The notes beneath the pieces were generated by a model, which saw nothing but the letters and a program-made list of their open reading frames with translations, was not told where the DNA came from and did no database searches. DNA of 64,000 nt, taken from the human T2T-CHM13v2.0 reference genome, Homo sapiens. A program made the position numbers and the translations under genes. Location: the NCBI RefSeq assembly GCF_009914755.1, contig NC_060948.1; one strand, written 5' to 3'. Positions 2,699 to 56,620 of this stretch are shown piece after piece (the stretch's first letter is position 1; every line of letters starts with the position of its first letter).

Positions 2699-5600
2699 TG
2701 ACACTGGATGTCCATACCATTACTCAGGTGGGCCTTAATTCCCAGCCAGGTTCCCTCCCTGGACACACACTGAAGGTCCCCAGCCATTTGGCAATCTCTT
2801 CACATTCCCAGCCCTGGAGGTAGCCCTAAAATACATGTACCTGAAGAAAATAAAACATTGCCTCACACTGGAGCCCAGTGTGGTCCTCCAGATTCCGTGT
2901 GAGGTGGACTAACTTATATGGGAAGGCAGGGCAGCGGGAGTGAGGATGGCAGAGAGGATTACACATGTCAAGGCAGCCGGGGTCATGGAAACAAAACATG
3001 ACTGGCCTGGGAGAAACACTGTGAAAGGACACAGACCTAGGTGGGCCTCAGGTGGACATCCTCGTGGAGAAAAAGGGGGCCCTGGTTGATCTCAAAATGA
3101 GCCCCAGGTGGTAGCAGGTCTTACCGCAGGGCAGGGAGCTGGCGAGTAATGATGAGACAGCTATCCCTTAAGCCCTGCTTGTCACCCACTGACTTTAGCC
3201 ACATATGCATCATAGTGGCTTAAGGTGCCCCGATCCTGAAATGTGGGTGTTACATGTCCCTGATGGGCCTCTCTCCCCCAACCCACGGATTGCCTGGGAT
3301 TGCTCACTGCAGTCTCCTCCCGGATCCTTGGGTTCTCCATGTGGGGCCCAGATCCAGGTCAAAAGGCCTCTCAGTTCCCAGCCCTTCCCAGCCCTAGGCT
3401 GCTCGCCTGGCCTCCTCTCTGTTCCGCCTCTAGGGCTGACCCTCTCTCCATGGGATAGAACTGCAATGGATTGAGCCATAGGCCCTGGCTGATGATCTAG
3501 GGGACTGCAGAAGTGGGTCCAGGACAGTTCAGGTGACAGTTCAAAGCCAATTCCCCAGAGACCAAGGAATGACCAGCTAGGTCCTTTCCCATGATGCCCC
3601 ACGGCGAACCCCACCTCAGCAATCCTGCCAAAACCCGGGCAGTCATGTTCAGCCAAACAGCTGAATGAGCTCAGGTAGGAGGTGTACTGCCTGCAGCTGG
3701 AGGCTTGACCTTCGTGATCCCAGAACCGCTGGACTGCAGTGGAATGAGACACCCTGTAGCCTGCAGGGAGAGGAGTCAGGAAGGTTCATGCCAGTCCCAC
3801 CCTCCCACACACCAGCTCCCCTACCATGCTGGGAGGCATTCCTTACCGAGGATGCCAACACAGTGCTCCTTCATGATGATTTCACTGTGGAAATAAAGGT
3901 TGGGATGAAAGGAAATCATCCTGCCACCGGTAACCGGGATGGCTGAGTTCCTCCACCTGCCGGATCAAGGAGAAAGAGGATGGATTCAATGGGACCATCT
4001 CAACTAGCCGGGCTGAGGTGGCCTACTAGCTGTAGTGAACCATGAGTTTCCCCTTCCCAGCTCTCCCACTGAGACAACCCTGGTCCCCAGGGGGACCTCA
4101 AACTGACTCAGACACTGGACTCCTCCCACAGACCCAGGCTCCCCAGCCTGACCTGCAAATCCATCACGTAGCAAAGCAGGACTTCCGCATGCTTTCCGAC
4201 CCACGCCGACATCTCGTGTGCCAAACAATCTACCTCTGCGCAAGAACTCTCCAGAGGATTGGGTGGGCAAGCCTCGTGACGCCTTGCAATTTCGCAAGAA
4301 CACAGACAATGTGGAACAGGGCCATCTCCCAGACATTTGGCCAGTCACCCTTCATTGTTGGCCCTCTATCTCTGTCTGGCGAGGAGGCAACGCCACAACT
4401 GTGGTGGTTTTTGGAGTGGGTGGACCCCGGCCAAGACGGCCTGGGCTGACCAGAGACGGGAGGCAGAAAAAGTGGGCAGGTGGTTGCAGCTGAGGGACGG
4501 GAGGGACCGGGGGTGGTGTGAGGCGGCTGCTTCTCTGAGTTTCTGAGATGCAGGAGGCCTTTGTGTGCTGGGTGCTGGACATGCTCCGCTGATGTCCGGG
4601 TGTGTGGTGTCCTCTTATCCTAGTCTCCCTGAGGGGTGGGCCTGTCCACCTGAGGGAAGCCTTGTAGTTAGAAGCCACAGCAGGGTCGTGCCTGGCGCTC
4701 TCCAAGGGAATTGCGTGGGTCCAGAGGAAGTTATACAGGCTCAGGGCCTACACGCCTTTGAGTGCAGCGCCTGCAGTTGGATGAATGCGCATCTGCGGAG
4801 CTGGTGCCCGCCGTCAGGTGGTCGGCAGCCCCATGCGCCGCGAACCCGTCTTAAGCACCTTGTGTTTCTGGGGTGAGCCTGCTGGAAACAGGCACCGAGA
4901 GCAGGGGTGGTTCAATGGCTGGTAATGGCATACAGATTCCCCGTCCTCCAGGGACGTTCCCAGGGAAACGCGTCCTTCGAATTTGGGCTGTGCGCAAAGG
5001 GACCTTGGCGCCGCGATTCTCCCTTGTCAGTGCTGGCCCTGGCTCCCCTTCCCTACCACGTGCTCCCAGGGCTGCTACAAGCGAGCTGCCCTCACAGCTG
5101 CGGGAACGTGGCCTCGGCTCCCACGCTGTCCCCCATCCCCTGCCTCCTGGCTGACCCCACGTGCCTCCCACCTGGCTCCTCCCCGCAAACAGCCCCCATA
5201 CCCCCCGAGGCCCGATGACTATCCCCTGCTGCCCGCCATCCCAAATCGGCAGCCGCAAGGATATGGCTCTGGCTCACAAGGCGGAGATGCTCTGTGGCCT
5301 GGGGCATTCACGGAGCCCAGCTCCAAGTGAAGGACCTCCAGCGAGTCCATTGACGGCCCCGGTGTGCTCGGTCCAGGGCCAGGCTGTGCCCGCTGGCCCT
5401 CCTTCTGCCACCCCACGTCGGGCTCCACCTCAACCACCACCTCCACCTCAGCCATGATGTCTTCCACCTTCAGCACCGCCTCCTCTTCCAAGGCCGCCTC
5501 CTTGCTCTGTACCCCGGCCGTCCTCTCCAGCATTGCCTCCAGCCTCAACACGGTTTTCTCCTGGGTGCTCCCACAGACCCTGGGCCTGCGCAGCCCAGCC

Positions 5601-5700
5601 CAGCCCAGCCCATGCCCCGCACCCGTAGGCTCTGGGGGCCCGCTCCCCAGCAGACCCGCTCCCTGCAAGACCCACGGGCGTCGCCCTGCTGTGAACCTGG
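2699..5700 (-). pseudogene. FAM197Y: Diverged unprocessed TSPY-family paralogue A, head-to-head with TSPY; exon homologues ~5700-5202, 4229-4153, 3956-3847, 3760-3615, 3496-3407; probably the FAM197Y/CYorf16 antisense unit
   Basis: Minus-strand translations align to TSPY exons 1-5: [18 protein letters not shown]; EMSAWVGKHAEVLLCYVMDLQ; VEELSHP...FHPNLYFHSEIIMKEH; GYRVSHSTAVQRFWD...GRIAE (146 nt, same length as TSPY exon 4); IISQGLWLNPLQFY. Exons 2 and 3 are frameshifted. The gene symbol rests on prior knowledge that an antisense unit lies in each TSPY repeat. Confidence 0.8.
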
Positions 5701-7300
5701 TCCCACACCTACGTGGACCCAGGTTTCCTGAGGAGCTCCGCTGGACCCGCAGATCCCGCACTGGCCAAAGGGCTCCGGTCCCCAGCAGGCTCAACTGCGC
5801 ACAGGAGCTCGGGAGCCAGAGGCCCCGGCCCTGGGCTTGCAGAGCCCCACCAACAGGCACCGCAACCGCTGCTGCGGGTGCGGGAGCCTCTGGGTCGTCA
5901 AGGCAGCGCACAACAGCGTGCGCGCAGGCCGACAATGGCCAACCCTGGCGGCTGGCCTCTGGTGTGCCCAGGGCATAGGACAAGAGGCCCTTTGGAATGC
6001 TCCTTGGAGTACAGCATCCTCAGGGAGGAAGCATGGTACTCGGAGCCTCTATTTGCCTCGACCTGTGAGAGTGTGTGCCGGGGCTCTGGCCTCTACAGCA
6101 GATCAATTCCACCTCAGCACCGGCAGGCGACTTTCCTCCCACGTGCCCGCCCCGATCACTTCCCCCAGGACACCCCTGCCGCCCTAGCCCCAGCAACCAG
6201 AGAGAGTTCTCTGCATCTGCTGTATTACCTCCGTACCATCTACCTGGCCTGCCTAACGAAGAGAGATGTTTCCTGTGTTCATGACACATAGAGATGTTCA
6301 TGGCTTGCCACACTGAGGATGTCAGGGCACAGGGCTGCCATGCCCACAATTCCAAAGGCCACGCAGCCCGCGTGTGCCCGGATGCCTAGCTACCCGGCAC
6401 AAGCTCCAAGGGCTTCTCGGAGGAGGCTTGGGCAGGGAAGGCGGGGGGTGGGGGGGCTGGAGATGCAGGCCCGCCAGTGGCTGTGCCGCCCAGGGAGACG
6501 CCCACCGCCCTCCCATTGATTGGCCACGACGGGAGGAAGTCGGCCTGGGTGCGGCCCCCCGGCCCTTCGCGCGCAGTCCCTTAGGGGGCGCCTGGAAGCC
6601 CGGCGCATGCGCCCTGAGGGCTCGCTGACCTATCGGGTGCCAGAGAGGCTGCGGCAGGGTTTCTGTGGCGTGGGTCGGGCAGCACAGGCCTTGGTGTGTG
6701 CGAGTGCCAAGGAGGGCACCGCCTTCAGGATGGAGGCTGTGCAGGAGGGGGCGGCCGGGGTGGAGAGTGAGCAGGCGGCTTTGGGGGAGGAGGCGGTGCT
6801 GCTGTTGGATGACATAATGGCGGAGGTGGAGGTGGTGGCGGAGGAGGAGGGCCTCGTGGAGCGGCGGGAGGAGGCCCAGCGGGCACAGCAGGCTGTGCCT
6901 GGCCCTGGGCCCATGACCCCAGAGTCTGCACTGGAGGAGCTGCTGGCCGTTCAGGTGGAGCTGGAGCCGGTTAATGCCCAAGCCAGGAAGGCCTTTTCTC
7001 GGCAGCGGGAAAAGATGGAGCGGAGGCGCAAGCCCCAGCTAGACCGCAGAGGCGCCGTCATCCAGAGCGTCCCTGGCTTCTGGGCCAATGTTGTATCCTT
7101 CTCAGTGTTTCTTCGGCCTTTCTAGTGGAGAGGTGCTCTCGGGGAAGTGTAAGTGACCGATGGGCAGCTCGGCGTCGATGTGACTCTTTGGGGAACAAAG
7201 GGGAGTTGCCACGGACCAATGTGGCTGTGGAAAGCCGGAGCAGGCGTGGGTACTATTGTCCTGCATGCGGCAGAGAAACCCTTGGTGATGCCGAGCAGCA
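4780..7300. promoter_or_regulatory. CpG island covering TSPY exon 1, paralogue A exon 1 and the intervening candidate bidirectional promoter
   Basis: Visibly high GC and CpG density relative to AT-rich flanks; GC-box-like sequence (ccaccgccc ~6502-6510) upstream of the ATG. Edges approximate. Confidence 0.8.
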
Positions 7301-9169
7301 GACGTTTGGGGCATCTTTTTGAAGAGCAGAAGCGAGTTCAGAGCGGAAGAGGTTTTTCAGTGAATGAAGCTATTTTTAAGGGAGTGTGATTGCTGCCCCT
7401 TGCTAGTCCGATCTGGGACTGGGCGTCTTCGGCTATAAGCAGATTCTGCCACTCCTCAGACACCAGCAAGTCTCTGCAAATCGCGCCTCCCCATGTCAGT
7501 GCAGTCAGCCTCAGAATCATACACCCTCTGTGAACACAGGAGGCCTTAGTTTACGGGGACGGGGAGGCGAAAGGAGATCATACATGGAAGCAGATCTGAG
7601 AAATCCCCTACCCCAGCCTCTGGGTGCTCTTAGGCCTTCTTCCCTGTTGCTCCTCGCTTTCCCTTCCATCGTGTGTAAAGTCTCTTTGACCTAAATCAGA
7701 TTGCAAACCACCCCCAGATGTCAGCCCTGATCACTGACGAAGATGAAGACATGCTGAGCTACATGGTCAGCCTGGAGGTGAGGCCAGGAAGACTGGGGCT
7801 AGAGGGTTTAGCGGGGGAGGGTAAGGGAAATAATTCATTCCTGTAAGCAAGAGTGAGCACCTCACCCGAAAACCTATCTAAGCTTTCTCCACCTTGTCCT
7901 GACAGGTGGGAGAAGAGAAGCATCCTGTTCATCTCTGCAAGATCATGTTGTTCTTTCGGAGTAACCCCTACTTCCAGAATAAAGTGATTACCAAGGAATA
8001 TCTGGTGAACATCACAGGTGACAGGTGGCTCCCAGGATGGGTAGTGGGAGGAAGATGGTGGGTGGATCATTGCCAACGGGATCCAGCCCCCTTCCCACAA
8101 AAACTCCTGTCTCTGTAGAATACAGGGCTTCTCATTCCACTCCAATTGAGTGGTATCCGGATTATGAAGTGGAGGCCTATTGCCGCAGACACCACAACAG
8201 CAGCCTTAACTTCTTCAACTGGTTCTCTGACCACAACTTCGCAGGATCTAACAAGATTGCTGAGGTGAGTCCTCACTGGGAAACATGAGGAATGACCCCG
8301 TGTGTTCCCAGCTGCTTGGGTCACCTTTCTGAGCCCTGATGAGGCCTTTCCCGATTGAGTCCCCTGACAGATCCTATGTAAGGACCTGTGGCGCAATCCC
8401 CTGCAATACTACAAGAGGATGAAGCCACCTGAAGAGGGAACAGAGACGTCAGGTGAGCCGTTAGTTGGCACTGGAGCTGTTTGATGCCCAGTATAAGGGG
8501 GTTGACACACCTGCCTATTCAGGGAGCCTGGGTGCTCATTTCAGAAATGTAGAAATTGAGGCTCCTTTCGTACATGTAGAAATTCCTTGAGAGGAAGACA
8601 GAGAGTGACAGAATCCAGGACGTTCATGGCATTGGGCTGAAAAGGCACGTTAGAGACTGCACTGCAAAGCGGGTGATAGCTGTGGAGTCTTAAGCCCAGT
8701 GAAGAATCGTCCATTTCCAGAATCAATGAGAAGTAAAGCTGAAAATCATTCAGTTCAGTCTGTGGCACTTGATTCCACGGCTGTCAACCCCACCGGCAGT
8801 CATCCCACCAACCCCATGAGATTGGGCTCCCTGAATGTGCGTCCTGGTCATCCTTGCCCCAAACCACAAAGGACTGTTTAGATTGATGGATTTCCTTAAG
8901 CTGTTGCCCCATCAGACTTGTGTGTGCTTTTAGGGCCCAGTGCATCTTGTTAGCTGACTCCCCTCACAGACAATACTGGGAATGGGGCAGGGATTGCGCA
9001 GAACAGTTTGTAACACGTGGTAGGAGGAAGTTTAAGGGATCACAAATGGGGAAGGGATATCCTTTTCTCAGCGGGCCCCACAATTGAAACATTGCAAAGT
9101 ATGGCTCAGAGAAAATGCGTTTTAACATGAGTTTGTGTTTCTCTAGGGGACTCCCAGTTGTTGAGTTGA
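6607..9169 (+). CDS. TSPY: Testis-specific Y-encoded protein (NAP/SET family), copy 1, 308 aa; coding exons 6607-7092, 7700-7777, 7906-8017, 8119-8264, 8371-8452, 9147-9169
   Basis: Translates [18 protein letters not shown]...FWANV|[10 protein letters not shown]...|[26 protein letters not shown]...|...KIAE|[14 protein letters not shown]...|GDSQLLS*. All introns are GT-AG and the exons sum to 927 nt with no internal stop. The paralogue number (TSPY1/3/4/8/10 etc.) cannot be assigned from sequence alone. Confidence 0.96.
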
Positions 9170-9339
9170 ATATGATGGAGCATCAGATTTTACCTAATAC
9201 AGCAGAACTCCTAAAAAGTTACAGCCATATGCAGGACGGCAGTACTCAGCATGGTCTTATGCACAGGAACTAAAGGAAAAAGAGATCGAGTCACAAAAAT
9301 TCAGGAAGAGGGGGTAAATGTGGATTGTATGGAATGAAA

Positions 9340-9345
9340 AATAAA
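9340..9345 (+). terminator. TSPY polyadenylation signal AATAAA followed by GT-rich downstream element
   Basis: AATAAA ~170 nt after the stop codon, then a (GT)n tract from ~9358. Confidence 0.8.
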
Positions 9346-9357
9346 CATTCTCAAGGA

Positions 9358-12779: not shown

Positions 12780-14560
12780 AAATATTTTATTTGCATTTAT
12801 TTTGTTAAGGCATTTTAAAAATTGTATGTTTGTTTAAAAAATGTCATATGAAATGATACATATTTACAACTTAAGGCGTGATGTTCAACAGGTCATATAC
12901 ATTATGCATTGGATACATCCAGCCAATCAACATATGTGTGACCTCACATAGTTGTCATTTTTGTTGTGAAAAAACTTGACTTGCACTGTATTCGAATATT
13001 TTTAGAGAAAGAATATGTTACCACTAGTTATAGTGAGCATGCTGAAGAAAATATTTTTAACCTATTCCTCCTTTATAACTAGAAGTATGAGTTCTTCATC
13101 CAGCATCTCGTCAGTGCACCCTCTTCACCGCAGTCATTGGAGTCACTACTTCTGTGAAGTCCGCTTTTTTGATTTCATATAAGAATGAGATCATGTGCTA
13201 TTTTCCTTTCTGATACCTGGCTTATGTCACTTAACAGAATGGCATGCACACATTCAGCAGATTCCCACACATTCTCACAACTGGCAGGATTTCCTGATTT
13301 CTTATTGCAGCGCATATTTCCGTTGCGCATATGCGTTTTTGCCCCATTTTTTAATCCACTTATCAATGGAGGGACACTCAGGTTGCTTCCGCATTTTGGC
13401 TACAGCAAAAATGTAATGAGTGCAGCAATAATTGCATGGGTGCGCGCACCGCTTCAACATACTGATCTGTGTACTGGCGGGCGTGCCCGGGTATTCTGAT
13501 TTGCTGGATCATATAGTGGGTGGTTCTAATTGTAGATTTCTGAAGGCTGTTTATACTTAAATAAGAGCCATAAAGCTTCTTTAATGCCAGCACTAATTTA
13601 CATTCTCCCCAAAAGTGAGCAGGGAATTCGTTTTCTCTGCCTCCTCACCAGAGATTAGGGTTTTCTTTTCTTTCTTTTTTTTTTTTGTTTGTTTGTCTTT
13701 CGGATAATATGCATTCTGACTGAAGTGAGAAGAAATCTCATTGTGTTTTTGATTTGCATTTTCGTGATGGATTGGGGATAATGAGGAATTTTTAGTGTGT
13801 CTTCTGGGCAACTGTATGTCTCAGTTTCACAAATGAGTCTTCGCAGCCTTCGCCCATTTGTTTTCATGCTATTGAGTTGTTGGGAGTTCCTTATGTACTG
13901 TGACTATTCCCCCATGAACAGATGTATGGTGATCCAATCATTGCTCCCATCCTGTAGGATGCCCCTTCTGTATGTTGAGTTTTCTATGGTGTGGTGAAGC
14001 ACTTTAGTTTGATATGATTCCATTCTCTATTTTTGATGGTGTTTACTGTGTTCTTGCAGTCACTTTGAGACCATCATTGCACACACGGACGCCATGGAGC
14101 TTCTTCCTTGTGATCTCTTCTGCTATTTTTATCGTTTCACATCTGACACTGGAGTTTGGTGATAAATAATCCACTTGTAAAATCCTTTGTGTGGCTATTC
14201 AGATTTCCCCAACCTAGTTTATAGAAGATACTTGATTTTGCATTGGGCGTTCTTGCTTCTTTGGGAAAAGGCTGTGAGCTGCAAATGCAGTGACTTAGTT
14301 CTGGGCTCCTGTTGTTTTTCCTAAGCTCTAGTCTCTGCTTTTCTGCCAGTGCTATTGTATTTTGGTACAAAAAGTTTTGTAGTAGTATATCATGAAGTTA
14401 GGTAGTGTGGTGGCTCCAGCTTTGTGCTTTTTACTGGATTGCTCTGGGTTTTCAGGATCTTCTGCCATTTCATAGCAAATTTGGGATTCCCAGATTGTTT
14501 TTCTAAGAAGAATGTGTCATTGATATTTTTACAGGGGTTGTATAGAATCTGAGGATGACT
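12780..14560 (-). mobile_element. Old LINE-1 remnant (ORF2 3' part plus 3' UTR); also at ~33083-34864 and ~53355-55135
   Basis: Minus-strand peptides TKMQIKNTMRFLLTSVRMHIIRK (cf. L1 ORF2 REMQIKTTMRYHLTPVRMAIIKK) and YQN...KSSIFYKLGWGN (cf. KDSLFNKWCWEN); L1 3' UTR motifs gagatcatg...tggcttat and ttgctggatcatat. Confidence 0.85.
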
Positions 14561-14627: not shown

Positions 14628-16045
14628 AGACACTGGGTGTCCTCACCAATACTGAGGTGGGCCTTAATATCCAGCCAGATTGCCTTCTGGAAACACACGG
14701 AATGTCCTGTTCTGTTTTGCCATCTCTTCACATTTCCTCCCCTGTGAGCCCTGTGTGGTCCTCCAGATTCCCTGTGCGGTGGCCTGCCTTTTTTGGGGTG
14801 GGGAGTTGCTGGGTGAATGAGGATGGCGGAGGGAACCAAGCATGTCAGTGGAGCGTGGTGTCATCCAAACGGTACTTAGCAGGCCTGGGAGAGTCATTCT
14901 GGGAGGACGCAGACCTAGAGAGGCCTCAGGTGGGCATCTGTGTGGAGGGTGAGAGATCCCTGGTTGAGCCCAAACTGAACCCCAGGTAGAAGCAAGCCTC
15001 AGGACAGGGAAGTAGCTAGCAAGGGATGATGAGGCAGCTATCTCTTGACCCTGGCTTCCCACCCATTGACCTTAGCTACTTATGCCTATTAAGCAGATTA
15101 CGGTTCCCCCATCGTGAAATGTGGGTACCACCGTTCCCTAATGGGCATTTCTCCACCAGCCCATGATGGCCTGAGTTTCCTTACTGCAGTCTCCTCCCTG
15201 AGCCTTGGCTTCTCTATGTGTGTCCTAACTCCAGGACCCACAGGCCTGTCAACCCCCAGCCCTGGGCTGCTTCCCTGGCCTCTTCTCTGTTCCCTCTCTG
15301 AGGGCCTAACTCCCTTGGGTAGTGCTGCAGAATATAGAGCCACAGGCCCTGGCTGATGATCTGGTGGACTGGGCAAATTGGTCGTGACAGGTCAGGTTCT
15401 GGTTCAAAGCCAATTCCTCCGATGCCAAGGAATGTCGAAGAAGGTCCTTTGCCATGATGCCCCATAGCTGCCCCACCTCAGCAATCGTGCCGTAACCTGG
15501 GCCCTCACAGTCAGACAACCAGCTGAAGAAGCTCAGGCAGTGACCTGCGGGAAACTCGGGCTTTCACCTGCATGACCCTAGAACCACTGGACTGCAGTGG
15601 AGCCAGTCACCCTGTATCCTGGAGGGAGACGAGTCAGGAAGGCGCACGCCAGGCCCAGCTCCCGAGGTACTACCCCCTCTACTCCTCAGGGAGGATGCCA
15701 ATGCAATACTCCTTAGTCATCACTTTGTTTCCGAAGTAAATGTTGTGATGAAAGGCAAACTTCTTCCTACCCCTTGTATTCAGGGTGGCCGAGTTCCTCC
15801 ACCTGCCTGTCCAAGAAGGAGAAACAGGGCTGTGAAGGGGCAATTTCATCTAGGTGGGCTGAGGTGGCATTCTAGCCGGGGTGAAGCATGCGTTTCCCCT
15901 TCCCAGCTTTCCCGCTGAGACACACCTGAGCCCCAGAAGGACCTCAACCTGACCAGGACCTTAGCGCCCTCCCCCAGACCCAGGCTTTCCATCCTGACCT
16001 GCAAATCCAACATGCAGCTTTGAAGGACTTTCTCATGGTTTCTGA
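14628..16045 (-). pseudogene. Second diverged TSPY-family paralogue B, 5'-truncated (3' part of exon 2 ending 15999; exon 3 from 15802; exon 4 15618-15477; exon 5 from 15360)
   Basis: Translates ...KVLQSCMLDLQ|VEELGHPEY...KFAFHHNIYFGNKVMTKEYCIGIL|GYRVTGSTAVQWF*...FFSWLSDCEGPGYGTIAE|IISQGLWLYILQHY. Co-linear nucleotide similarity to 2699-4200 includes introns; in-frame stops present. Confidence 0.8.
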
Positions 16046-18094
16046 GCTCCTTGCTCTCACCAGAAAGAATCAGAACTTTTAAAGTGTTCTTTATGCCAAC
16101 TTAAATTTTTTCATTTTTACTACCTCATGTTTTGGATGAGGCATGTATTTTTAAATTTATTTTCACCCTTATTGTACCTCTATGATAAACTGCTTGCTTA
16201 CATTCATACCGTAATTATCTCTCAGGTTACTTGTCTGTTCCTAAAGATTCACTGAAACGAAGAATTCTATATATGCTTGTATCTTTCAGCAACCGTATGT
16301 CAGATAGCACTGCACATTACTGCAGACATCGCATATACAGGTCCAAAGGTAGAGGAAGAAGAAGAAAGCAAGCGTTAAACTCTATTCATTCCTAAAAGCA
16401 TATCAGAAACTCACAAATAACAGTGAAATCAAAGAATGATCACAGCCAATTCCATTACATACCTAGACTGAAATACGAAACTTCAAAGAAAAGAAACATT
16501 AGAACTTTGGGTTTGTAAAAATTTTCCTATATAGATAAAATTATTGGTAACTGTGTCTCACTAGAAAACGTAAACAAAAATCCATGTTTTTCATATTTGT
16601 AAATATACATAGTTTTATTTCCATCAGTTATGACATGCAAGCAAGTAATAAAGTGAAAGTACAATCAAATGATATATGGAACTTCCTCAGTCTTAAAATA
16701 TTCCATGGAGACTATCAATTTTATGAAAACTATAAAGAATGCTTCATGAAACTACATTGTACAGTGCCATTTACTATTTTACTGACATTTTAAATAATCA
16801 ACAATTAAAGGGAATACGTCAACATTATTTAATACCAATAACGTTATTTTTCTTGAGTAATCCTGTTGAAATTAAGGATTTTAAATAAAACATTAAAAAC
16901 AAATTATATTGACTGATTTCAGCTTTGGATGAAATCATACTTGTGTATTTGTAGTAATGCGAAGCATAACTTTCTCCTCACAATTAATCTTTTATAACAT
17001 CGGTGTTATAGTTTTCTCTGACACCAACATTGTGATATCGCACAGGTTTACTGCATGCATGCATTACATGCCTCCAGAGAGTAGGCTTCAAATATATGGA
17101 AAAATTATATTTATGAAAAAATTCTAGGAAAGGGAATGGTGAAATGGAAGAGAATTTCTCACTTGCTAACTGTTGGACATGGATTTGTATATATTTGGAT
17201 ATAGACACATACTGGCACACTGTGAGTTTGCCCATGTATATATACACTTATATGAGAAACCCATAATATATGGGTTGTGTAATCTTTTAATTAATCCATA
17301 ATTGTATGTGTGTGAAATTAGATAAGCGGTTACCTTTTCTTTACTCAATTTGATGGAAAGCCAAAAAACTCTGTCCACCTTCATTTCAATTAATCCAATA
17401 CTGTTAACTGCTGGTAGCTTCATTCTCCTTGTTCTCTTACGGCAACCGGAAAGTTAATTCTCGCTCTAATTTGGCTTTCAAGGTGCGATCAACAAGAGTG
17501 TCACCTTGCTGTGGATTGTGACCTCTGACTCCACCTCTGTCTTCCTTTTGCAGTCCTACCTTTGCATAGGTAACAAACTTTGTACATGGTTAAAAGGATA
17601 AAAGTTCAGTGAAATGTCAAGCCATGCTGTGAAATGTTCCATAGTTTCTATATCTCTAATTGTCCTTTGATGTTATAGAGGCAAGAAAAATAATTCAATG
17701 TTTTTCTTAGTATCTAGTCCAATGCACGCTTTCTTCATAATACTGCAAACAAGGCACTGACATGGAAACGTGGCTGGACGTCTCAAAATCTCTTCTCATT
17801 AATTACCATTATGTTAATCACTGTTGCCCACAACTGGAATTGGACTTTGAAATCCCCTGGTGGAAATTGCTATAATGGCTCAAACTACTGGAAAGACTAT
17901 CTTTTTTTTACCTGAAAATATCTGATGAGCATAGACGTATGCTATATACAGGAACATATTGTACATTAACAACATACCATCACTGCCACTCAATAATAGG
18001 TATCCCAAACCTTTGAGCCAAACTGAGCTCGGGTGCTCCCACAAACCAAGCTTTTCCCTCCACAGATTTCTTATGTCAAAAAGCCACAACTCCA

Positions 18095-18400
18095 GGCCAG
18101 GCTTCGTGGCTCTTGTTGTAATTTCTACATTTTGGGAGGCCGAGGTTGGTGGGTCACTTGAGGTCAGGAGTTGGAGACCAGCATGGGCAACATGGCAAAA
18201 AGCTGTCTCTACCAAAAATACAAAAATTAGCCAGACCTAGTGGCACTTTCCTGTGGTCCCAGCTACTTGGGAGGCTGAGGCAGGAGAACCACCTGAACAT
18301 GGGTGGCAGAGATTGTATAGTAAGCCAAGATCAGACTACTGCACTCCAGCCTGGATGACACAGCGAGACCATGACTGAAAAAAGAAAAAAAAAAAATAAA
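18095..18400 (+). mobile_element. Full-length diverged Alu with degenerate target-site duplication (caactcca); also at ~38398-38690 and ~58669-58974
   Basis: ggccaggc...tttgggaggccgagg...gaggtcaggagtt...aaaaatacaaaaattagcc...ctgcactccagcctgg followed by A tail; caactcca occurs on both flanks. Confidence 0.92.
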
Positions 18401-18445
18401 GGCAACTCCACTCGTCCACTGGCTTAGGTAAAAAGTACTGGAGTT

Positions 18446-18763
18446 GGCTGGGCTCGGTGGCTCACACCTGTATTCCCAGCACTTTGGATTTTGGGAAGCT
18501 GAGTCGGGCGGGTCACCTGAGATCTGTAGTAGGAGAGCAGCCTGGCCAACATGGTGAAGCCTGGCTTCTACTAAAAATACAAAACATTAGCTGAGCGTGG
18601 TGATGCATGCTTGTAATCCCAGCTACTGCAGAGGCTGAACCTGGGAGGCGGAGGATGTGTTGAGCTGAGATCCTGCCACTGCGCTCCAGCCTGGTCTACA
18701 GAGCGAGAGTACCCTGTGAGAAACAAAGGTGAAGAGAACAAGAAAAAAAAAATGAGAAAAATA
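18446..18763 (+). mobile_element. Second full-length diverged Alu; also at ~38736-39052 and ~59020-59337
   Basis: ggctgggctcggtggctcacacctgtattcccagcacttt...cctggccaacatggtgaa...ctactaaaaatacaaaa...ccactgcgctccagcctgg. Confidence 0.92.
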
Positions 18764-18858
18764 AGACCCACTGCAAAAGGTTGCCACAGAAAAGATTAAA
18801 CATTTCAGCAACTTCTATCTTCTGTCATGGAAGCCAAGGTTATTTGGACCAAACCTCC

Positions 18859-19211
18859 TGTCTTAGTTCATTTTCACGCTGCTGAAGAAGACATACCTGA
18901 AACTGGGAATAAAAGGAGGTTTAATTGGACTGACAGTTCCACATGGCTGTGGAGGCCTCAGAATCATGGTATACGAATAAAGGCACTTCTTACATGGCAA
19001 TGCCAAGAGAGAATGAGGAAGAACCTGAGGCAGAAACCCCTGAAAAACCCATCAGATCCCGTGAGACTTCTTCACTGTCACAAGAATAGCATGAGAAAGA
19101 CCAACCCCCATGATTCAATTACCTCCCCCTGGGTCGCACCCGCAACACGAGGGAATTCTGGGAGATACAATTGAAGCTGAGATTTGAATGGAGACACACC
19201 AAACCATGTCA
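18859..19211 (-). mobile_element. THE1 (ERVL-MaLR) solo LTR, THE1C-like
   Basis: TG...CA termini, 353 bp, diagnostic ttttcacgctgctga...gtttaattggact...catgattcaattacctccccctgggtc...caaaccatgtca; 5-bp flanks cctcc/cttcc fit a target-site duplication. Subfamily assigned from recalled consensus. Confidence 0.9.
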
Positions 19212-19729
19212 CTTCCCAAACAATTAAAAATTCCCAATAGAAGAAGCATTAATTATATCAAAAAGTGGTGGACCAAGAAGGAACTATTAGCCTCATATCT
19301 CAAGAAAGACTCCAGTCAAGGCCTAGGGACTACTCATGAAAAGAGTTTAATAGCCGACTCTCTCCCAGTGGATCTGGATTCCACCGGACTGTATCTTCAC
19401 AGTAAGGGTGAAACAGAAGCAAACCCATTCCTATTTCCAAGCTCAAGGAACTTTGGTCAAAGTTCTCTTGGAGCTGAGCAGAACAAGGAGGCAAACAGAA
19501 AAGATTTGTGTCCCTGAGAAGTCATGGCCACAGGCTGGCTATCACACAGATTGTCAAGCCAGTTCCATATTGCATGGGTATTACAGAAAATCTCAAAACA
19601 TAAATTTGTGTGTGGGTTGTCCCAGAGTAGCAGGATCTGGCAGAAGGAAATTTCCTTCTAACCCTCAAAGAATCCACATAAATCTTGTTACATTTGGGAT
19701 TTTACGATTTGCTTCAGGAATGAGAATGG

Positions 19730-20650
19730 CCTTAATTTTCATATCTTTTTCTACACTCAGTTTATGTCTTGTTGGCATCAAAGTTCTGCTTCCTTCACAC
19801 AATGAGTTTAGGATTTTCCCTTTTTTATTCTATAGAATTCTTCATATATATTGAAATGCTCTGCCTGGGGAAAAAAATCTGAGCCTAGCGTTTTATCTCT
19901 AGGAAGAATCCTTTATTTCCTTGAACATTTATGAGACTATACAGATTATATATGTCTTCTTGTATCAATTTTACTAAGCTATATACATAGCTTATGTTTA
20001 TATATTATATATATAAATGTAAGATACAAATATAAAAATTATGTATAAATATGAAAATATATATAGAAAGCGATATATATGTCTATATATATAGACAGAT
20101 TATAAATATCTGTCTATTTGATCTAAGTTTTCAAATTTGTAGGTTAAGGTGTTAACGATATTTCCTTATTAGCTTCTTAATCTATGCTGTATCTATGGTT
20201 GTGTACCTTTTAAATTCTTAGTTTTATCTATGTTTTCTCCCTTTTTTTCTAAACTTGACTGACGGTTGCATCATTTATTATATTTCTCCAACAAGCAAAG
20301 GTTAGCTTTGTATGTTTTACTAATTTTGTCTACATCATTATTCCCACACTTTAGTTTTTCAGAATTGATTCTGTTGTTTCTTTTCTAATTCTTTATTGAA
20401 ATATCTAGTACATTAATTTTCAAGTTATTAGAGAAATATTTGTCTGTAAACTCCTATTGTAATATCACTTTTCTTGCTACTCACAGATTTAATCTTTAAT
20501 ATTGGCGGTATCATTGAGTTCTAAGTACATTTCAATTCCTAGTATGATAATCTATGAATTGCTGAGAAATAGTGTTTACAATTTTGTTGTTCTATTTCCA
20601 CTTAAGTTTATTTTTACTTCTGCTAACTCAATTGAAAATTCTTTACTAAT
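19730..20650 (-). mobile_element. Ancient LINE-1 (L1M-like) ORF2 fragment interrupted by a TA-rich tract (~19980-20110); also at 1-333, ~40019-40939, ~60304-61224
   Basis: T-rich sequence resembling the antisense of L1 ORF2; highly diverged, boundaries approximate. Confidence 0.55.
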
Positions 20651-22434
20651 TTTTAAAATCCTTGAACCCAAGAGATGGAGGTTGCAGTGAGCTGAGATCA
20701 GGCCACTGCATTCCAGACTGAGTGACAGAGTGGAACGAGATTTCAAAACAAAACAAAACAAAACAAAACAAAACAGTCACTGGAAAGATAATAAAATACA
20801 TAAATGTGGGATGTAATATGTAATCGTGATAAAATAAACTGGATTTTTTGTATAAGTTATACATATAAATGTAATGCCAAGACACTGATAAGACAACTCA
20901 TGGTCTTATCTCAATACTTAGTGTCTTCATGTAACATATGTCCTTTAGGATAGTTATAGTCCGTTTTCTTTCCAGGAGAGACAGATGAGAATGCAGAAAT
21001 GTTAAAGTGCAAGGGACGGAAGCTTCCAGCTGTGCCCACCTGTAACCTGACGTAGACAGTTCCACCGTTTGCTTCATTAATCATGCCAAAGGCTCTAATG
21101 CAAATGTGGTACAGAGTCACATGTTTTTGTATCTACATGATAGAAACTATAACTTCATCCCTATATAGAAGGGTATATAGCATATGCCTCAGTGATAAAT
21201 ATAAGTGAATCATTGATCAGTAGGAAACCATTTTAAAAGTCTTTCATAACAGAACAAAATCCCTGAAAACATTTTCTTCTCAATCTCTGAGTTTTCTTAC
21301 ACGGCTTATGAATCTCTAGCCATACTAAAGAGATAGTATGCTGCTCTTCCCACAAATTATTCATTGTATATAATTCCTGTAATCTAATAACAGTACCTTT
21401 ACACCTCAGGGTTTAAAATGACTCCAACCTTTTTCTGTTTCTCCAATTAAAATAACTTTTTTAAGGTTTAATCTTCAGTAATTTTTTGTAGTAATATTTT
21501 TGAAGGTATTTGACCAGGATGATTTGCTTATATACCTACCTGACGTCTCCCTTTCTTCTGAATACATATTTTATTACCCACCTATTAGATCTAAGTTTAA
21601 GAAGTTGGAATAGGGATTTAAATCTAAATTCTACATTTGAATTTACAGGAGTCAGCGAGTCCGGGAAGTGCCTTTATGCACAGACCAATATCTGGCAATG
21701 GCACCAGGAGACAAATAAGCTTTACCAGTCTCAAAGCCCTGGCTACTACAGTGAATCCACCCTTCTCCTGGATCTTATCTACTTCAGCAAAAGAAGGCCA
21801 CCCACTAAACCAGGCCCTTGTACTTTGGGTGGAAACTCCTAAGTCCTCTAGTCTCCTCAAACAGACAGCCAGGCTGCCAATTTCCACAATAATAATTTCT
21901 ATAGCACTGAGTCTTTGGTAGCCTTGTAACTATAGCTACTGATGCTACAGTCTGGTCCCTGTATGATAAAACACCAGAGCAACAGAAACAAAAATATTGA
22001 CTGAAGCCTTCTAAAATCTCTCTAAATATACCTTCAATAAATATCGTTTTTTTTTACAGAACGACTGCTTTCAGCTTCCTGAACGAACGCTTGGCCTTCG
22101 CTAGTTGTCACTGTTGAAATTGATTCAAAAGTGTACATTTAACATGAAAGTCAACACAGAATTTCATGTGTCAGCAACTAAAATTTTCAAAATGTTGCAA
22201 AATACAAATGTGAAACTGTATTTGTGAAATTTACCATTCATTGAAATTATATTTTCATACCTACCCAGGCACAGAATTTTTTATAACTGTCTGCATGTTC
22301 TCCTCATGTGGGGGAAAAACAGCATCAGCAGGCAGAGGAATCCTTTGAAGCTGGAGGGAGAGGTTGCAGTGATCTGAGAGTTTGCCACTTGACTGCAGCC
22401 TGGATGACACAGTGAGACTCCAACTGAAAAGAAA

Positions 22435-34931: not shown

Positions 34932-36349
34932 AGACACTGGGTGTCCTCACCAATACTGAGGTGGGCCTTAATATCCAGCCAGATTGCCTTCTGGAAACAC
35001 ACGGAATGTCCTGTTCTGTTTTGCCATCTCTTCACATTTCCTCCCCTGTGAGCCCTGTGTGGTCCTCCAGATTCCCTGTGCGGTGGCCTGCCTTTTTTGG
35101 GGTGGGGAGTTGCTGGGTGAATGAGGATGGCGGAGGGAACCAAGCATGTCAGTGGAGCGTGGTGTCATCCAAACGGTACTTAGCAGGCCTGGGAGAGTCA
35201 TTCTGGGAGGACGCAGACCTAGAGAGGCCTCAGGTGGGCATCTGTGTGGAGGGTGAGAGATCCCTGGTTGAGCCCAAACTGAACCCCAGGTAGAAGCAAG
35301 CCTCAGGACAGGGAAGTAGCTAGCAAGGGATGATGAGGCAGCTATCTCTTGACCCTGGCTTCCCACCCATTGACCTTAGCTACTTATGCCTATTAAGCAG
35401 ATTACGGTTCCCCCATCGTGAAATGTGGGTACCACAGTTCCCTGATGGGCATTTCTCCACCAGCCCATGATGGCCTGAGTTTCCTTACTGCAGTCTCCTC
35501 CCTGAGCCTTGGCTTCTCTATGTGTGTCCTAACTCCAGGACCCACAGGCCTGTCAACCCCCAGCCCTGGGCTGCTTCCCTGGCCTCTTCTCTGTTCCCTC
35601 TCTGAGGGCCTAACTCCCTTGGGTAGTGCTGCAGAATATAGAGCCACAGGCCCTGGCTGATGATCTGGTGGACTGGGCAAATTGGTCGTGACAGGTCAGG
35701 TTCTGGTTCAAAGCCAATTCCTCCGATGCCAAGGAATGTCGAAGAAGGTCCTTTGCCATGATGCCCCATAGCTGCCCCACCTCAGCAATCGTGCCGTAAC
35801 CTGGGCCCTCACAGTCAGACAACCAGCTGAAGAAGCTCAGGCAGTGACCTGCGGGAAACTCGGGCTTTCACCTGCATGACCCTAGAACCACTGGACTGCA
35901 GTGGAGCCAGTCGCCCTGTATCCTGGAGGGAGACGAGTCAGGAAGGCGCACGCCAGGCCCAGCTCCCGAGGTACTACCCCCTCTACTCCTCAGGGAGGAT
36001 GCCAACGCAATACTCCTTAGTCATCACTTTGTTTCCGAAGTAAATGTTGTGATGAAAGGCAAACTTCTTCCTACCCCTTGTATTCAGGGTGGCCGAGTTC
36101 CTCCACCTGCCTGTCCAAGAAGGAGAAACAGGGCTGTGAAGGGGCAATTTCATCTAGGTGGGCTGAGGTGGCATTCTAGCCGGGGTGAAGCATGCGTTTC
36201 CCCTTCCCAGCTTTCCCGCTGAGACACACCTGAGCCCCAGAAGGACCTCAACCTGACCAGGACCTTAGCACCCTCCCCCAGACCCAGGCTTTCCATCCTG
36301 ACCTGCAAATCCAACATGCAGCTTTGAAGGACTTTCTCATGGTTTCTGA
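34932..36349 (-). pseudogene. TSPY-family paralogue B, unit 2
   Basis: Copy of 14628-16045. Confidence 0.8.
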
Positions 36350-55202: not shown

Positions 55203-56620
55203 AGACACTGGGTGTCCTCACCAATACTGAGGTGGGCCTTAATATCCAGCCAGATTGCCTTCTGGAAACACACGGAATGTCCTGTTCTGTTTTGCCATCT
55301 CTTCACATTTCCTCCCCTGTGAGCCCTGTGTGGTCCTCCAGATTCCCTGTGCGGTGGCCTGCCTTTTTTGGGGTGGGGAGTTGCTGGGTGAATGAGGATG
55401 GCTGAGGGAACCAAGCATGTCAGTGGAGCGTGGTGTCATCCAAACGGTACTTAGCAGGCCTGGGAGAGTCATTCTGGGAGGACGCAGACCTAGAGAGGCC
55501 TCAGGTGGGCATCTGTGTGGAGGGTGAGAGATCCCTGGTTGAGCCCAAACTGAACCCCAGGTAGAAGCAAGCCTCAGGACAGGGAAGTAGCTAGCAAGGG
55601 ATGATGAGGCAGCTATCTCTTGACCCTGGCTTCCCACCCATTGACCTTAGCTACTTATGCCTATTAAGCAGATTACGGTTCCCCCATCGTGAAATGTGGG
55701 TACCACAGTTCCCTGATGGGCATTTCTCCACCAGCCCATGATGGCCTGAGTTTCCTTACTGCAGTCTCCTCCCTGAGCCTTGGCTTCTCTATGTGTGTCC
55801 TAACTCCAGGACCCACAGGCCTGTCAACCCCCAGCCCTGGGCTGCTTCCCTGGCCTCTTCTCTGTTCCCTCTCTGAGGGCCTAACTCCCTTGGGTAGTGC
55901 TGCAGAATATAGAGCCACAGGCCCTGGCTGATGATCTGGTGGACTGGGCAAATTGGTCGTGACAGGTCAGGTTCTGGTTCAAAGCCAATTCCTCCGATGC
56001 CAAGGAATGTCGAAGAAGGTCCTTTGCCATGATGTCCCATAGCTGTCCCACCTCAGCAATCGTGCCGTAACCTGGGCCCTCACAGTCAGACAACCAGCTG
56101 AAGAAGCTCAGGCAGTGACCTGCGGGAAACTCGGGCTTTCACCTGCATGACCCTAGAACCACTGGACTGCAGTGGAGCCAGTCGCCCTGTATCCTGGAGG
56201 GAGACGAGTCAGGAAGGCGCACGCCAGGCCCAGCTCCCGAGGTACTACCCCCTCTACTCCTCAGGGAGGATGCCAACGCAATACTCCTTAGTCATCACTT
56301 TGTTTCCGAAGTAAATGTTGTGATGAAAGGCAAACTTCTTCCTACCCCTTGTATTCAGGGTGGCCGAGTTCCTCCACCTGCCTGTCCAAGAAGGAGAAAC
56401 AGGGCTGTGAAGGGGCAATTTCATCTAGGTGGGCTGAGGTGGCACTCTAGCCGGGGTGAAGCATGCGTTTCCCCTTCCCAGCTTTCCCGCTGAGACACAC
56501 CTGAGCCCCAGAAGGACCTCAACCTGACCAGGACCTTAGCACCCTCCCCCAGACCCAGGCTTTCCATCCTGACCTGCAAATCCAACATGCAGCTTTGAAG
56601 GACTTTCTCATGGTTTCTGA
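55203..56620 (-). pseudogene. TSPY-family paralogue B, unit 3
   Basis: Copy of 14628-16045. Confidence 0.8.

What the first reader, a model, noticed from the sequence alone, without database searches (positions are those of the whole stretch)
14628..16045. Second, headless minus-strand TSPY-like copy (B): an ancient tandem duplicate of copy A
Seen in sequence: 14628-16045 is co-linear with 2699-4200, including introns and about 700 bp of 3' flank (gtgggccttaat, tgtggtcctccagattcc, ggccctggctgatgatct, gagttcctccacctgc, ctgacctgcaaatcca), yet it is far more diverged than the 20 kb units are from each other. A and B share VEEL-HP, STAVQ, IISQGLWL and MDLQ/LDLQ to the exclusion of TSPY, so they form their own subfamily. 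B has no exon 1 and is bounded by L1 and AT-rich DNA. Inference: the A/B duplication predates amplification of the 20.3 kb unit, giving three TSPY-family bodies per unit. On the minus strand, A of unit n+1 lies upstream of B of unit n, so chimeric A-to-B splicing is possible.
Basis: partly seen in the sequence, partly recalled or inferred. Interest (0 to 1): 0.7.

Follow-up and report, generated by a model that had tools for sequence, protein, structure and literature searches.

The report
Fossil second TSPY gene inside array
Each 20-kb repeat of the human Y-chromosome TSPY array carries, besides the working gene, two broken remains of a related gene; they likely descend from a second TSPY gene that cats, seals, whales and bats still use, and this headless copy is predicted to make no protein.

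Summary
B (14629-16049, minus) matches A at 72.5% over 1358 columns; array units match at 99.4%. B is a dead fragment from mid exon 2 to past exon 5, with two stops, a lost donor and a 4-nt deletion in 30 of 30 array copies read.

A and B are not a private tandem pair. They are two of four lineages of a chrY-wide pseudogene family: A is nearer copies beside RBMY (C), B nearer a fourth type (D). The older module is B, inverted TSPY, A; the A-then-B adjacency comes from a younger seam at 20660/20661.

In protein trees the family groups with the second mammalian TSPY paralogue (cat TSPY1a type), not with primate TSPY1: support 92/85 to 99/93, and 9 versus 1 shared derived residues. Its exon-1 head looks primate TSPY1-like, so it is a mosaic. 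A's upstream DNA, up to TSPY's CCAAT box, is homologous to the DNA before RBMY.

A-to-B splicing could not be tested and would be non-coding.

The parts
14629..16049 (-). Copy B: 5'-truncated unprocessed TSPY-family pseudogene (mid exon 2 to about 650 nt past exon 5)
15999..16049 (-). B: last two thirds of exon 2, GT donor intact; breakpoint to AT-rich DNA near 16049, shared by 7 of 7 B-lineage rows
15690..15802 (-). B exon 3: 113 nt against 112 in TSPY (family-wide +1), TAG, donor reads CT
15477..15618 (-). B exon 4: 142 nt (4-nt deletion), TAG shared by all B and D rows; acceptor and donor intact
15281..15360 (-). B exon 5 equivalent, acceptor intact
13658..13903 (-). Piece of degenerate L1 ORF2 in B's 3' flank (the L1 likely spans about 13200-14560)
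   Evidence: the wider span is by eye
16050..20660 (.). AT-rich DNA with Alus that replaced B's head; no remnant of exon 1
20660..20661 (.). Seam of the 20.3-kb unit: B-side flank joined to a cut Alu of the A-side flank; also at 343, 40949, 61234
2700..5602 (-). Copy A: family member with head; 76-nt deletion in exon 1 and donor AT for GT; body of the annotated minus-strand lncRNA
   Evidence: hub annotation (lncRNA exons 3847-3956 and 3615-3760 equal family exons 3 and 4)
5603..6524 (.). Spacer between A and TSPY, up to TSPY's inverted CCAAT box; homologous to the spacer between C copies and RBMY
6594..9357 (+). TSPY1-type gene, the middle gene of the B, TSPY, A module
   Evidence: hub annotation
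34933..36349 (-). Copy B of unit 2
55204..56620 (-). Copy B of unit 3

Best explanation
B is a headless, broken copy of a TSPY-family gene that is repeated in the units of the array; it likely descends from the second mammalian TSPY paralogue and likely has no product, being carried along passively with TSPY1. Steps: (1, inferred) TSPY duplicated into type I and type II before primates and laurasiatherians split. (2, shown lesions, inferred order) The primate type II copy took on a TSPY1-like exon-1 head and died once: exon-1 deletion, lost exon-1 donor, +1 in exon 3. (3, shown tree) The dead copy spread on the Y by segmental duplication into lineages A, C and B, D. (4, shown) B lost its head inside exon 2. 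(5, shown junction, inferred mechanism) The module B, inverted TSPY1, A was made tandem by a join through an Alu and amplified. (6, inferred) Gene conversion keeps the copies uniform and GC-biased. The only role with evidence is as homology for rearrangement between cassettes.
For: Lesions fixed in 30 of 30 array copies read. A/B identity is flat: exons 72.7-78.0%, introns 67.6-76.8%, downstream 74.9%. Exon 3 is 113 nt in 12 of 19 family rows, from all four lineages. Exon-1 donor is AT in 5 of 5 heads. Protein trees put the family with type II: 93/96 (71 rows), 92/85 (32 rows), 99/93 (30 rows, no long outgroups). AU against joining anthropoid TSPY1 p 0.008, against all type I p 0.032. Derived residues shared only with type II 9, only with anthropoid TSPY1 1. 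TSPY introns 1 and 5 do not align with the family's. Cat Q1WF20 matches the TSPY1a group in the supplement of PMC6280758. Old trios at 5.92-5.93, 7.33-7.34, 10.2 and 22.34-22.35 Mb. Weak-to-strong substitution excess in array copies 79:81 vs 37:101, p 8e-5.
Against: The family stem is long (0.47-0.54) and only 124 columns were used. With long outgroups in the set, AU did not reject family plus anthropoid TSPY1 (p 0.088) nor family plus outgroups (p 0.2); two of three trees were not starred. Of 12 strict type I/II sites, 5 are type II, 1 type I, 6 neither; the family carries 8 of 19 type II states and 3 of 19 anthropoid states. A's exon-1 head scores best with primate TSPY1 (187 human, 185 macaque, at most 106 for type II), so a conversion or chimera must be added. 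Short introns 2-4 still align with TSPY1 at 57-71%. No primate type II gene and no synteny in other mammals were examined. 'No product' rests on sequence and annotation, not on RNA data.
Confidence: 0.7

Rival explanations
1. The family is an early primate duplicate of TSPY1 whose exons 2-5 evolved fast and came to resemble type II by convergence or retention of old states; B is still a dead copy.
For: Exon-1 head 73% identical to TSPY1 in DNA and closest to primate TSPY1 in protein; AU p 0.088 in one set; introns 2-4 alignable.
Against: 9 vs 1 shared derived residues; AU p 0.008 without long outgroups; exons 2-5 only 58-65% identical to TSPY1; long introns unalignable.
Confidence: 0.17
2. B is a direct tandem duplicate of A and the pair is a local subfamily.
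For: Same strand, co-linear, 72.5% identical.
Against: A and B are not sisters; A is nearer C and B nearer D; the adjacency is made by the young seam.
Confidence: 0.04
3. B is kept because read-through antisense RNA from A splices into it and yields a functional non-coding RNA that tunes TSPY.
For: Three AG acceptors intact; A is transcribed through its family exons 3 and 4 (hub annotation); B lies downstream on the same strand.
Against: No exon-over-intron conservation; no annotated exon in B; annotated transcripts end at least about 2.6 kb short (FAM197Y5 end, computed from the hub table); eight AATAAA between.
Confidence: 0.07
4. The A/B match is an interspersed repeat.
For: The T2T-Y paper lists five new repeat annotations in each unit, which may cover this DNA.
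Against: All listed hits are on chrY and the element has TSPY's exon-intron layout.
Confidence: 0.01

Closest known systems
Human TSPY1 (TSPY/SET/NAP family, Pfam NAP PF00956)
   Same: Exons 2-5 with the same intron positions; exon 4 is 146 nt in most family rows.
   Different: 58-62% DNA and 36-40% protein identity over exons 2-5; opposite strand; B has no head and no open frame.
Cat TSPY1a/c group (type II TSPY of carnivores, whales, camel, bats), PMC6280758
   Same: Groups with it in three trees and shares 9 derived residues.
   Different: Those are annotated coding genes; the human family is dead and has a TSPY1-like head. The paper (passages and one supplement seen) places human with TSPY1b, infers lineage-specific loss, and found no cat ortholog of CYorf16.
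CYorf16 / FAM197Y
   Same: The minus-strand transcript of each unit; its annotated exons coincide with copy A's exons 3 and 4, so it is a sense transcript of B's relative.
   Different: Described as an antisense ORF or pseudogene unit (PMC6280758, PMC3954084, passages). It does not cover B.
Annotated dispersed TSPY pseudogenes of chrY
   Same: The T2T-Y paper reports that most TSPY pseudogenes form a branch apart from coding copies (passages); several dispersed family members found here may be those genes.
   Different: I could not match coordinates to gene names; the hub table lists no gene over B.

Membership tests
TSPY-family unprocessed pseudogene | Homology to TSPY exons with introns at TSPY positions | tested here: met
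TSPY-family unprocessed pseudogene | Disabling lesions | tested here: met
   two TAG, lost donor, 4-nt deletion, 5' truncation in 30 of 30
TSPY-family unprocessed pseudogene | No selection on exons | tested here: met
   exon identity equals intron identity; a formal dN/dS was not computed
Coding TSPY1 (type I) | Intact six-exon ORF with NAP domain | tested here: not met
Coding TSPY1 (type I) | Groups with human TSPY1 | tested here: not met
   AU p about 1e-74 in DNA; p 0.008 but 0.088 in protein
Type II TSPY (cat TSPY1a-like) | Groups with type II over exons 2-5 | tested here: met
   93/96, 92/85, 99/93
Type II TSPY (cat TSPY1a-like) | Diagnostic residues | tested here: inconclusive
   9 vs 1 derived, yet only 8 of 19 type II states and 5 of 12 strict sites
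Type II TSPY (cat TSPY1a-like) | Type II exon 1 | tested here: not met
   absent in B; in A closest to primate TSPY1
Type II TSPY (cat TSPY1a-like) | Synteny or intron homology with non-primate type II genes | not testable with these tools
   no other mammalian genomes are held
FAM197Y / CYorf16 transcription unit | Annotated transcript over the locus | tested here: not met
   hub annotation: exons lie in A, none in B
Interspersed repeat | Copies across chromosomes | tested here: not met

The most novel reading that the evidence does not exclude
The human TSPY and RBMY arrays descend from one cassette in which a live gene sits between two fossils of the lost type II TSPY (B, TSPY, A and D, RBMY, C). 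The middle gene was swapped at a CCAAT box, so TSPY1 and RBMY share a homologous upstream region, and FAM197Y/CYorf16 is the surviving transcript of the lost gene.
Probability: 0.4. Interest if true: 0.65.

Novelty: new member of a known kind. Interest (0 to 1): 0.45.

Why it matters
B itself is a pseudogene. What matters is what it records. Humans are thought to have kept one of two ancient TSPY subfamilies; the second likely survives as about 90 fossils inside the array and dozens elsewhere on the Y. That would give CYorf16/FAM197Y an origin, link the TSPY and RBMY arrays in one history, and offer a testable reason for their shared germ-cell expression (own knowledge): a homologous upstream region. 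The copies also give a neutral marker for gene conversion inside the largest protein-coding array after rDNA.

Tried and rejected
Interspersed repeat: rejected.

The 7.33-Mb copy as 'B with its head': first thought so, rejected. Its body is C-type and only its 3' end is B-type, so B's own head was not found.

B's 650-nt tail as TSPY intron 5, and an exon-6 remnant: no better than shuffles.

Pfam on A exon 4 and five L1-region frames: nothing relevant. A protein search with A exon 4 found 7 unspliced ORF hits, none named and none a coding ortholog. The representative search added no named type II protein.

No structure or complex was predicted: B has no ORF worth folding. A formal dN/dS was not computed; exon against intron identity was used instead.

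Left open: the 7 kb between the 7.33 and 7.34 Mb copies was not read, so TSPY there rests on one 29-nt motif with 2 mismatches. 18 of the 37 sites were not read, and 24 hits were not listed. Bhowmick et al. 2007 (PMC1832091) was not held and Skaletsky 2003 was not read; either may already describe part of this.

Full report
Observation. The window holds three units of the human TSPY array, 99.4-99.5% identical. B (14629-16045, minus) aligns to A (2700-4199, minus) at 72.5% over 1358 columns plus 78.6% over 117; the score is 811 against at most 30 in 50 shuffles. Both map on TSPY exons 2-5. A genome search scored 40 of 139 candidates, all 99-100% copies of B on chrY.

Anatomy of B. It begins inside exon 2 near 16049, joined to AT-rich DNA; 7 of 7 B-lineage rows share this break. 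Exon 3 has a TAG and a donor reading CT; exon 4 has a TAG and a 4-nt deletion. All five marks are present in 30 of 30 array copies read. Acceptors of exons 3-5 and donors of exons 2 and 4 are intact. A/B identity is no higher in exons (72.7-78.0%) than in introns (67.6-76.8%) or downstream (74.9%). An L1 ORF2 piece lies 3' (E 0.006). No head remnant is found upstream.

A chrY-wide family. Motif searches gave 85, 124 and 37 hits with 0 control hits; every listed hit is on chrY (24 hits not listed). I read 19 of the 37 sites. A tree of 19 rows, leaving out six near-identical loci, shows four lineages: A, C, B and D, with A nearer C and B nearer D (100/100). With four TSPY rows added, the family is one side of a 0.4 branch; B with TSPY and A_win with B_win as sisters are both rejected. 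The ancestor was likely dead already: exon 3 is 113 nt against 112 in 12 of 19 rows from all lineages, and 5 of 5 heads carry an exon-1 deletion (76 nt in A) and AT for the donor GT.

The module and the seam. Old copies at 82-89% identity keep the order B, inverted TSPY, A at 5.92-5.93 and 10.2 Mb; motif spacing shows the same at 7.33-7.34 and 22.34-22.35 Mb. In those copies B's upstream flank runs on into other DNA and A's downstream flank holds a longer Alu; in the array the two are joined at 20660/20661, cutting the Alu. So the unit runs B, TSPY, A, and A-before-B adjacency is a product of tandem amplification. Rough dating (inference): A/B distance about 0.30 against 0.13 for the 88% copies; if those are about 30 million years old (they group with human apart from macaque at 99/71; the date is own knowledge), A and B split some 60-70 million years ago.

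Deeper origin. Named mammalian TSPY proteins fall into two boreoeutherian groups: type I (human TSPY1, rodents, pig, ruminants, donkey, one set of carnivores and whales) and type II (cat Q1WF20, seals, mustelids, camel, blue whale, bats). I chose 58 database proteins by taxon and added 15 human rows; two were left out as truncated or mosaic. The human family joins type II at 93/96 (71 rows), 92/85 (32 rows) and 99/93 (30 rows without long outgroups), in the smaller sets as sister to the laurasiatherian members, as the species tree predicts. AU tests: with anthropoid TSPY1 p 0.008 but 0.088; with all type I p 0.032; with outgroups p 0.2; with Atlantogenata p 0.036. Derived residues shared only with type II: 9; only with anthropoid TSPY1: 1. 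Against: a long stem, 124 columns, only 8 of 19 type II states kept, and an exon-1 head closest to primate TSPY1. TSPY's long introns 1 and 5 do not align with the family's, which fits an old split of the body with a later conversion of the head.

RBMY link. Of 27 chrY hits to the RBMY domain PF08081, 15 have a family motif head-to-head at 11.6-15.4 kb and 13 tail-to-tail. Five of the 15 were read and are C-type; three tail-to-tail copies read are D-type; no triplet was read at both ends. An RBMY-like coding exon lies upstream of the head in L034 and L040-L042 (identified by a recalled motif). A's upstream DNA is homologous to that spacer up to 6524, the inverted CCAAT box 37 nt before the TSPY9 start equivalent (116 of 157, shuffles at most 36 against 107). 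The 7.33-Mb copy is C in its body and B in its 3' flank, a crossover that joins an RBMY cassette to a TSPY cassette.

How it works. B most likely does nothing by itself: it is copied and homogenised with the unit. Array copies show a weak-to-strong excess (79:81 against 37:101, p 8e-5) and CpG o/e 0.25, as GC-biased conversion predicts; two dispersed B rows also had ratios of 0.6-1.1 on few sites. Splicing from A into B is possible in sequence but has no annotation support, must pass eight AATAAA and could not code.

Literature. Ten searches. PMC6280758 (passages, one supplement; its figure PDF unreadable) reports two TSPY subfamilies, human with TSPY1b, and no cat ortholog of CYorf16. The T2T-Y preprint 10.1101/2022.12.01.518724 (passages; supplements closed) reports five new repeat annotations per unit and a separate pseudogene branch. 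PMC3924835 (parts 1-2 of 4) counts five pseudogenes. PMC3954084, PMC3954093, PMC4772468, PMC3403216, PMC3759724, PMC13639308 and preprints 2024.04.02.587783, 2022.12.01.518658, 2023.11.30.569198 and 2026.06.03.729890 (passages) do not, in what I saw, describe B, call FAM197Y TSPY-derived, or link the two arrays. Bhowmick 2007 and Skaletsky 2003 were not read, and preprint supplements may hold more.

Verdict. A real, unannotated, dead gene fragment: a new member of a known kind. Interest 0.45.

Noticed in passing
window 3615-5127 (-): The annotated lncRNA uses copy A's TSPY-family exons 3 and 4, and its long first exon retains intron 1, whose donor is dead; FAM197Y/CYorf16 is thus likely a sense transcript of a TSPY-family pseudogene. 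A 104-codon ORF starts at 5533.
   Followed up: partly
window 5603-6524; L034 3581-4300; L040 4190-4900: The TSPY upstream region up to its CCAAT box is homologous to the DNA before RBMY copies.
   Followed up: partly
L034 (chrY 7.33 Mb): Hybrid copy, C-type body with B-type 3' flank, joining an RBMY-like gene upstream to a TSPY/A module downstream.
   Followed up: partly
window copies A and B: Weak-to-strong substitution excess and kept CpG in array copies; the RBMY-array copy C_22.73 also has CpG o/e 0.24.
   Followed up: partly
L037, L045, L038 (chrY 10.19-10.23 Mb): The TSPY2 locus looks like one modern array unit (96-99%) set inside an old 87-89% cassette, as a homologous insertion would give.
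   Followed up: no
P0087, P0067, P0073, P0071: Seal and whale TSPY proteins that look like type I/II mosaics, suggesting repeated conversion between the two paralogues in other mammals.
   Followed up: no
window 5299-5602 vs 6671-6982: A's head and TSPY exon 1 form an inverted repeat of about 310 nt at 73%, about 1.07 kb apart, a possible substrate for the head conversion.
   Followed up: partly
window 8121-8422: The unit-1 TSPY model uses an alternative exon-5 acceptor and ends in another frame; TSPY9 has a 6-codon duplication in exon 1.
   Followed up: no
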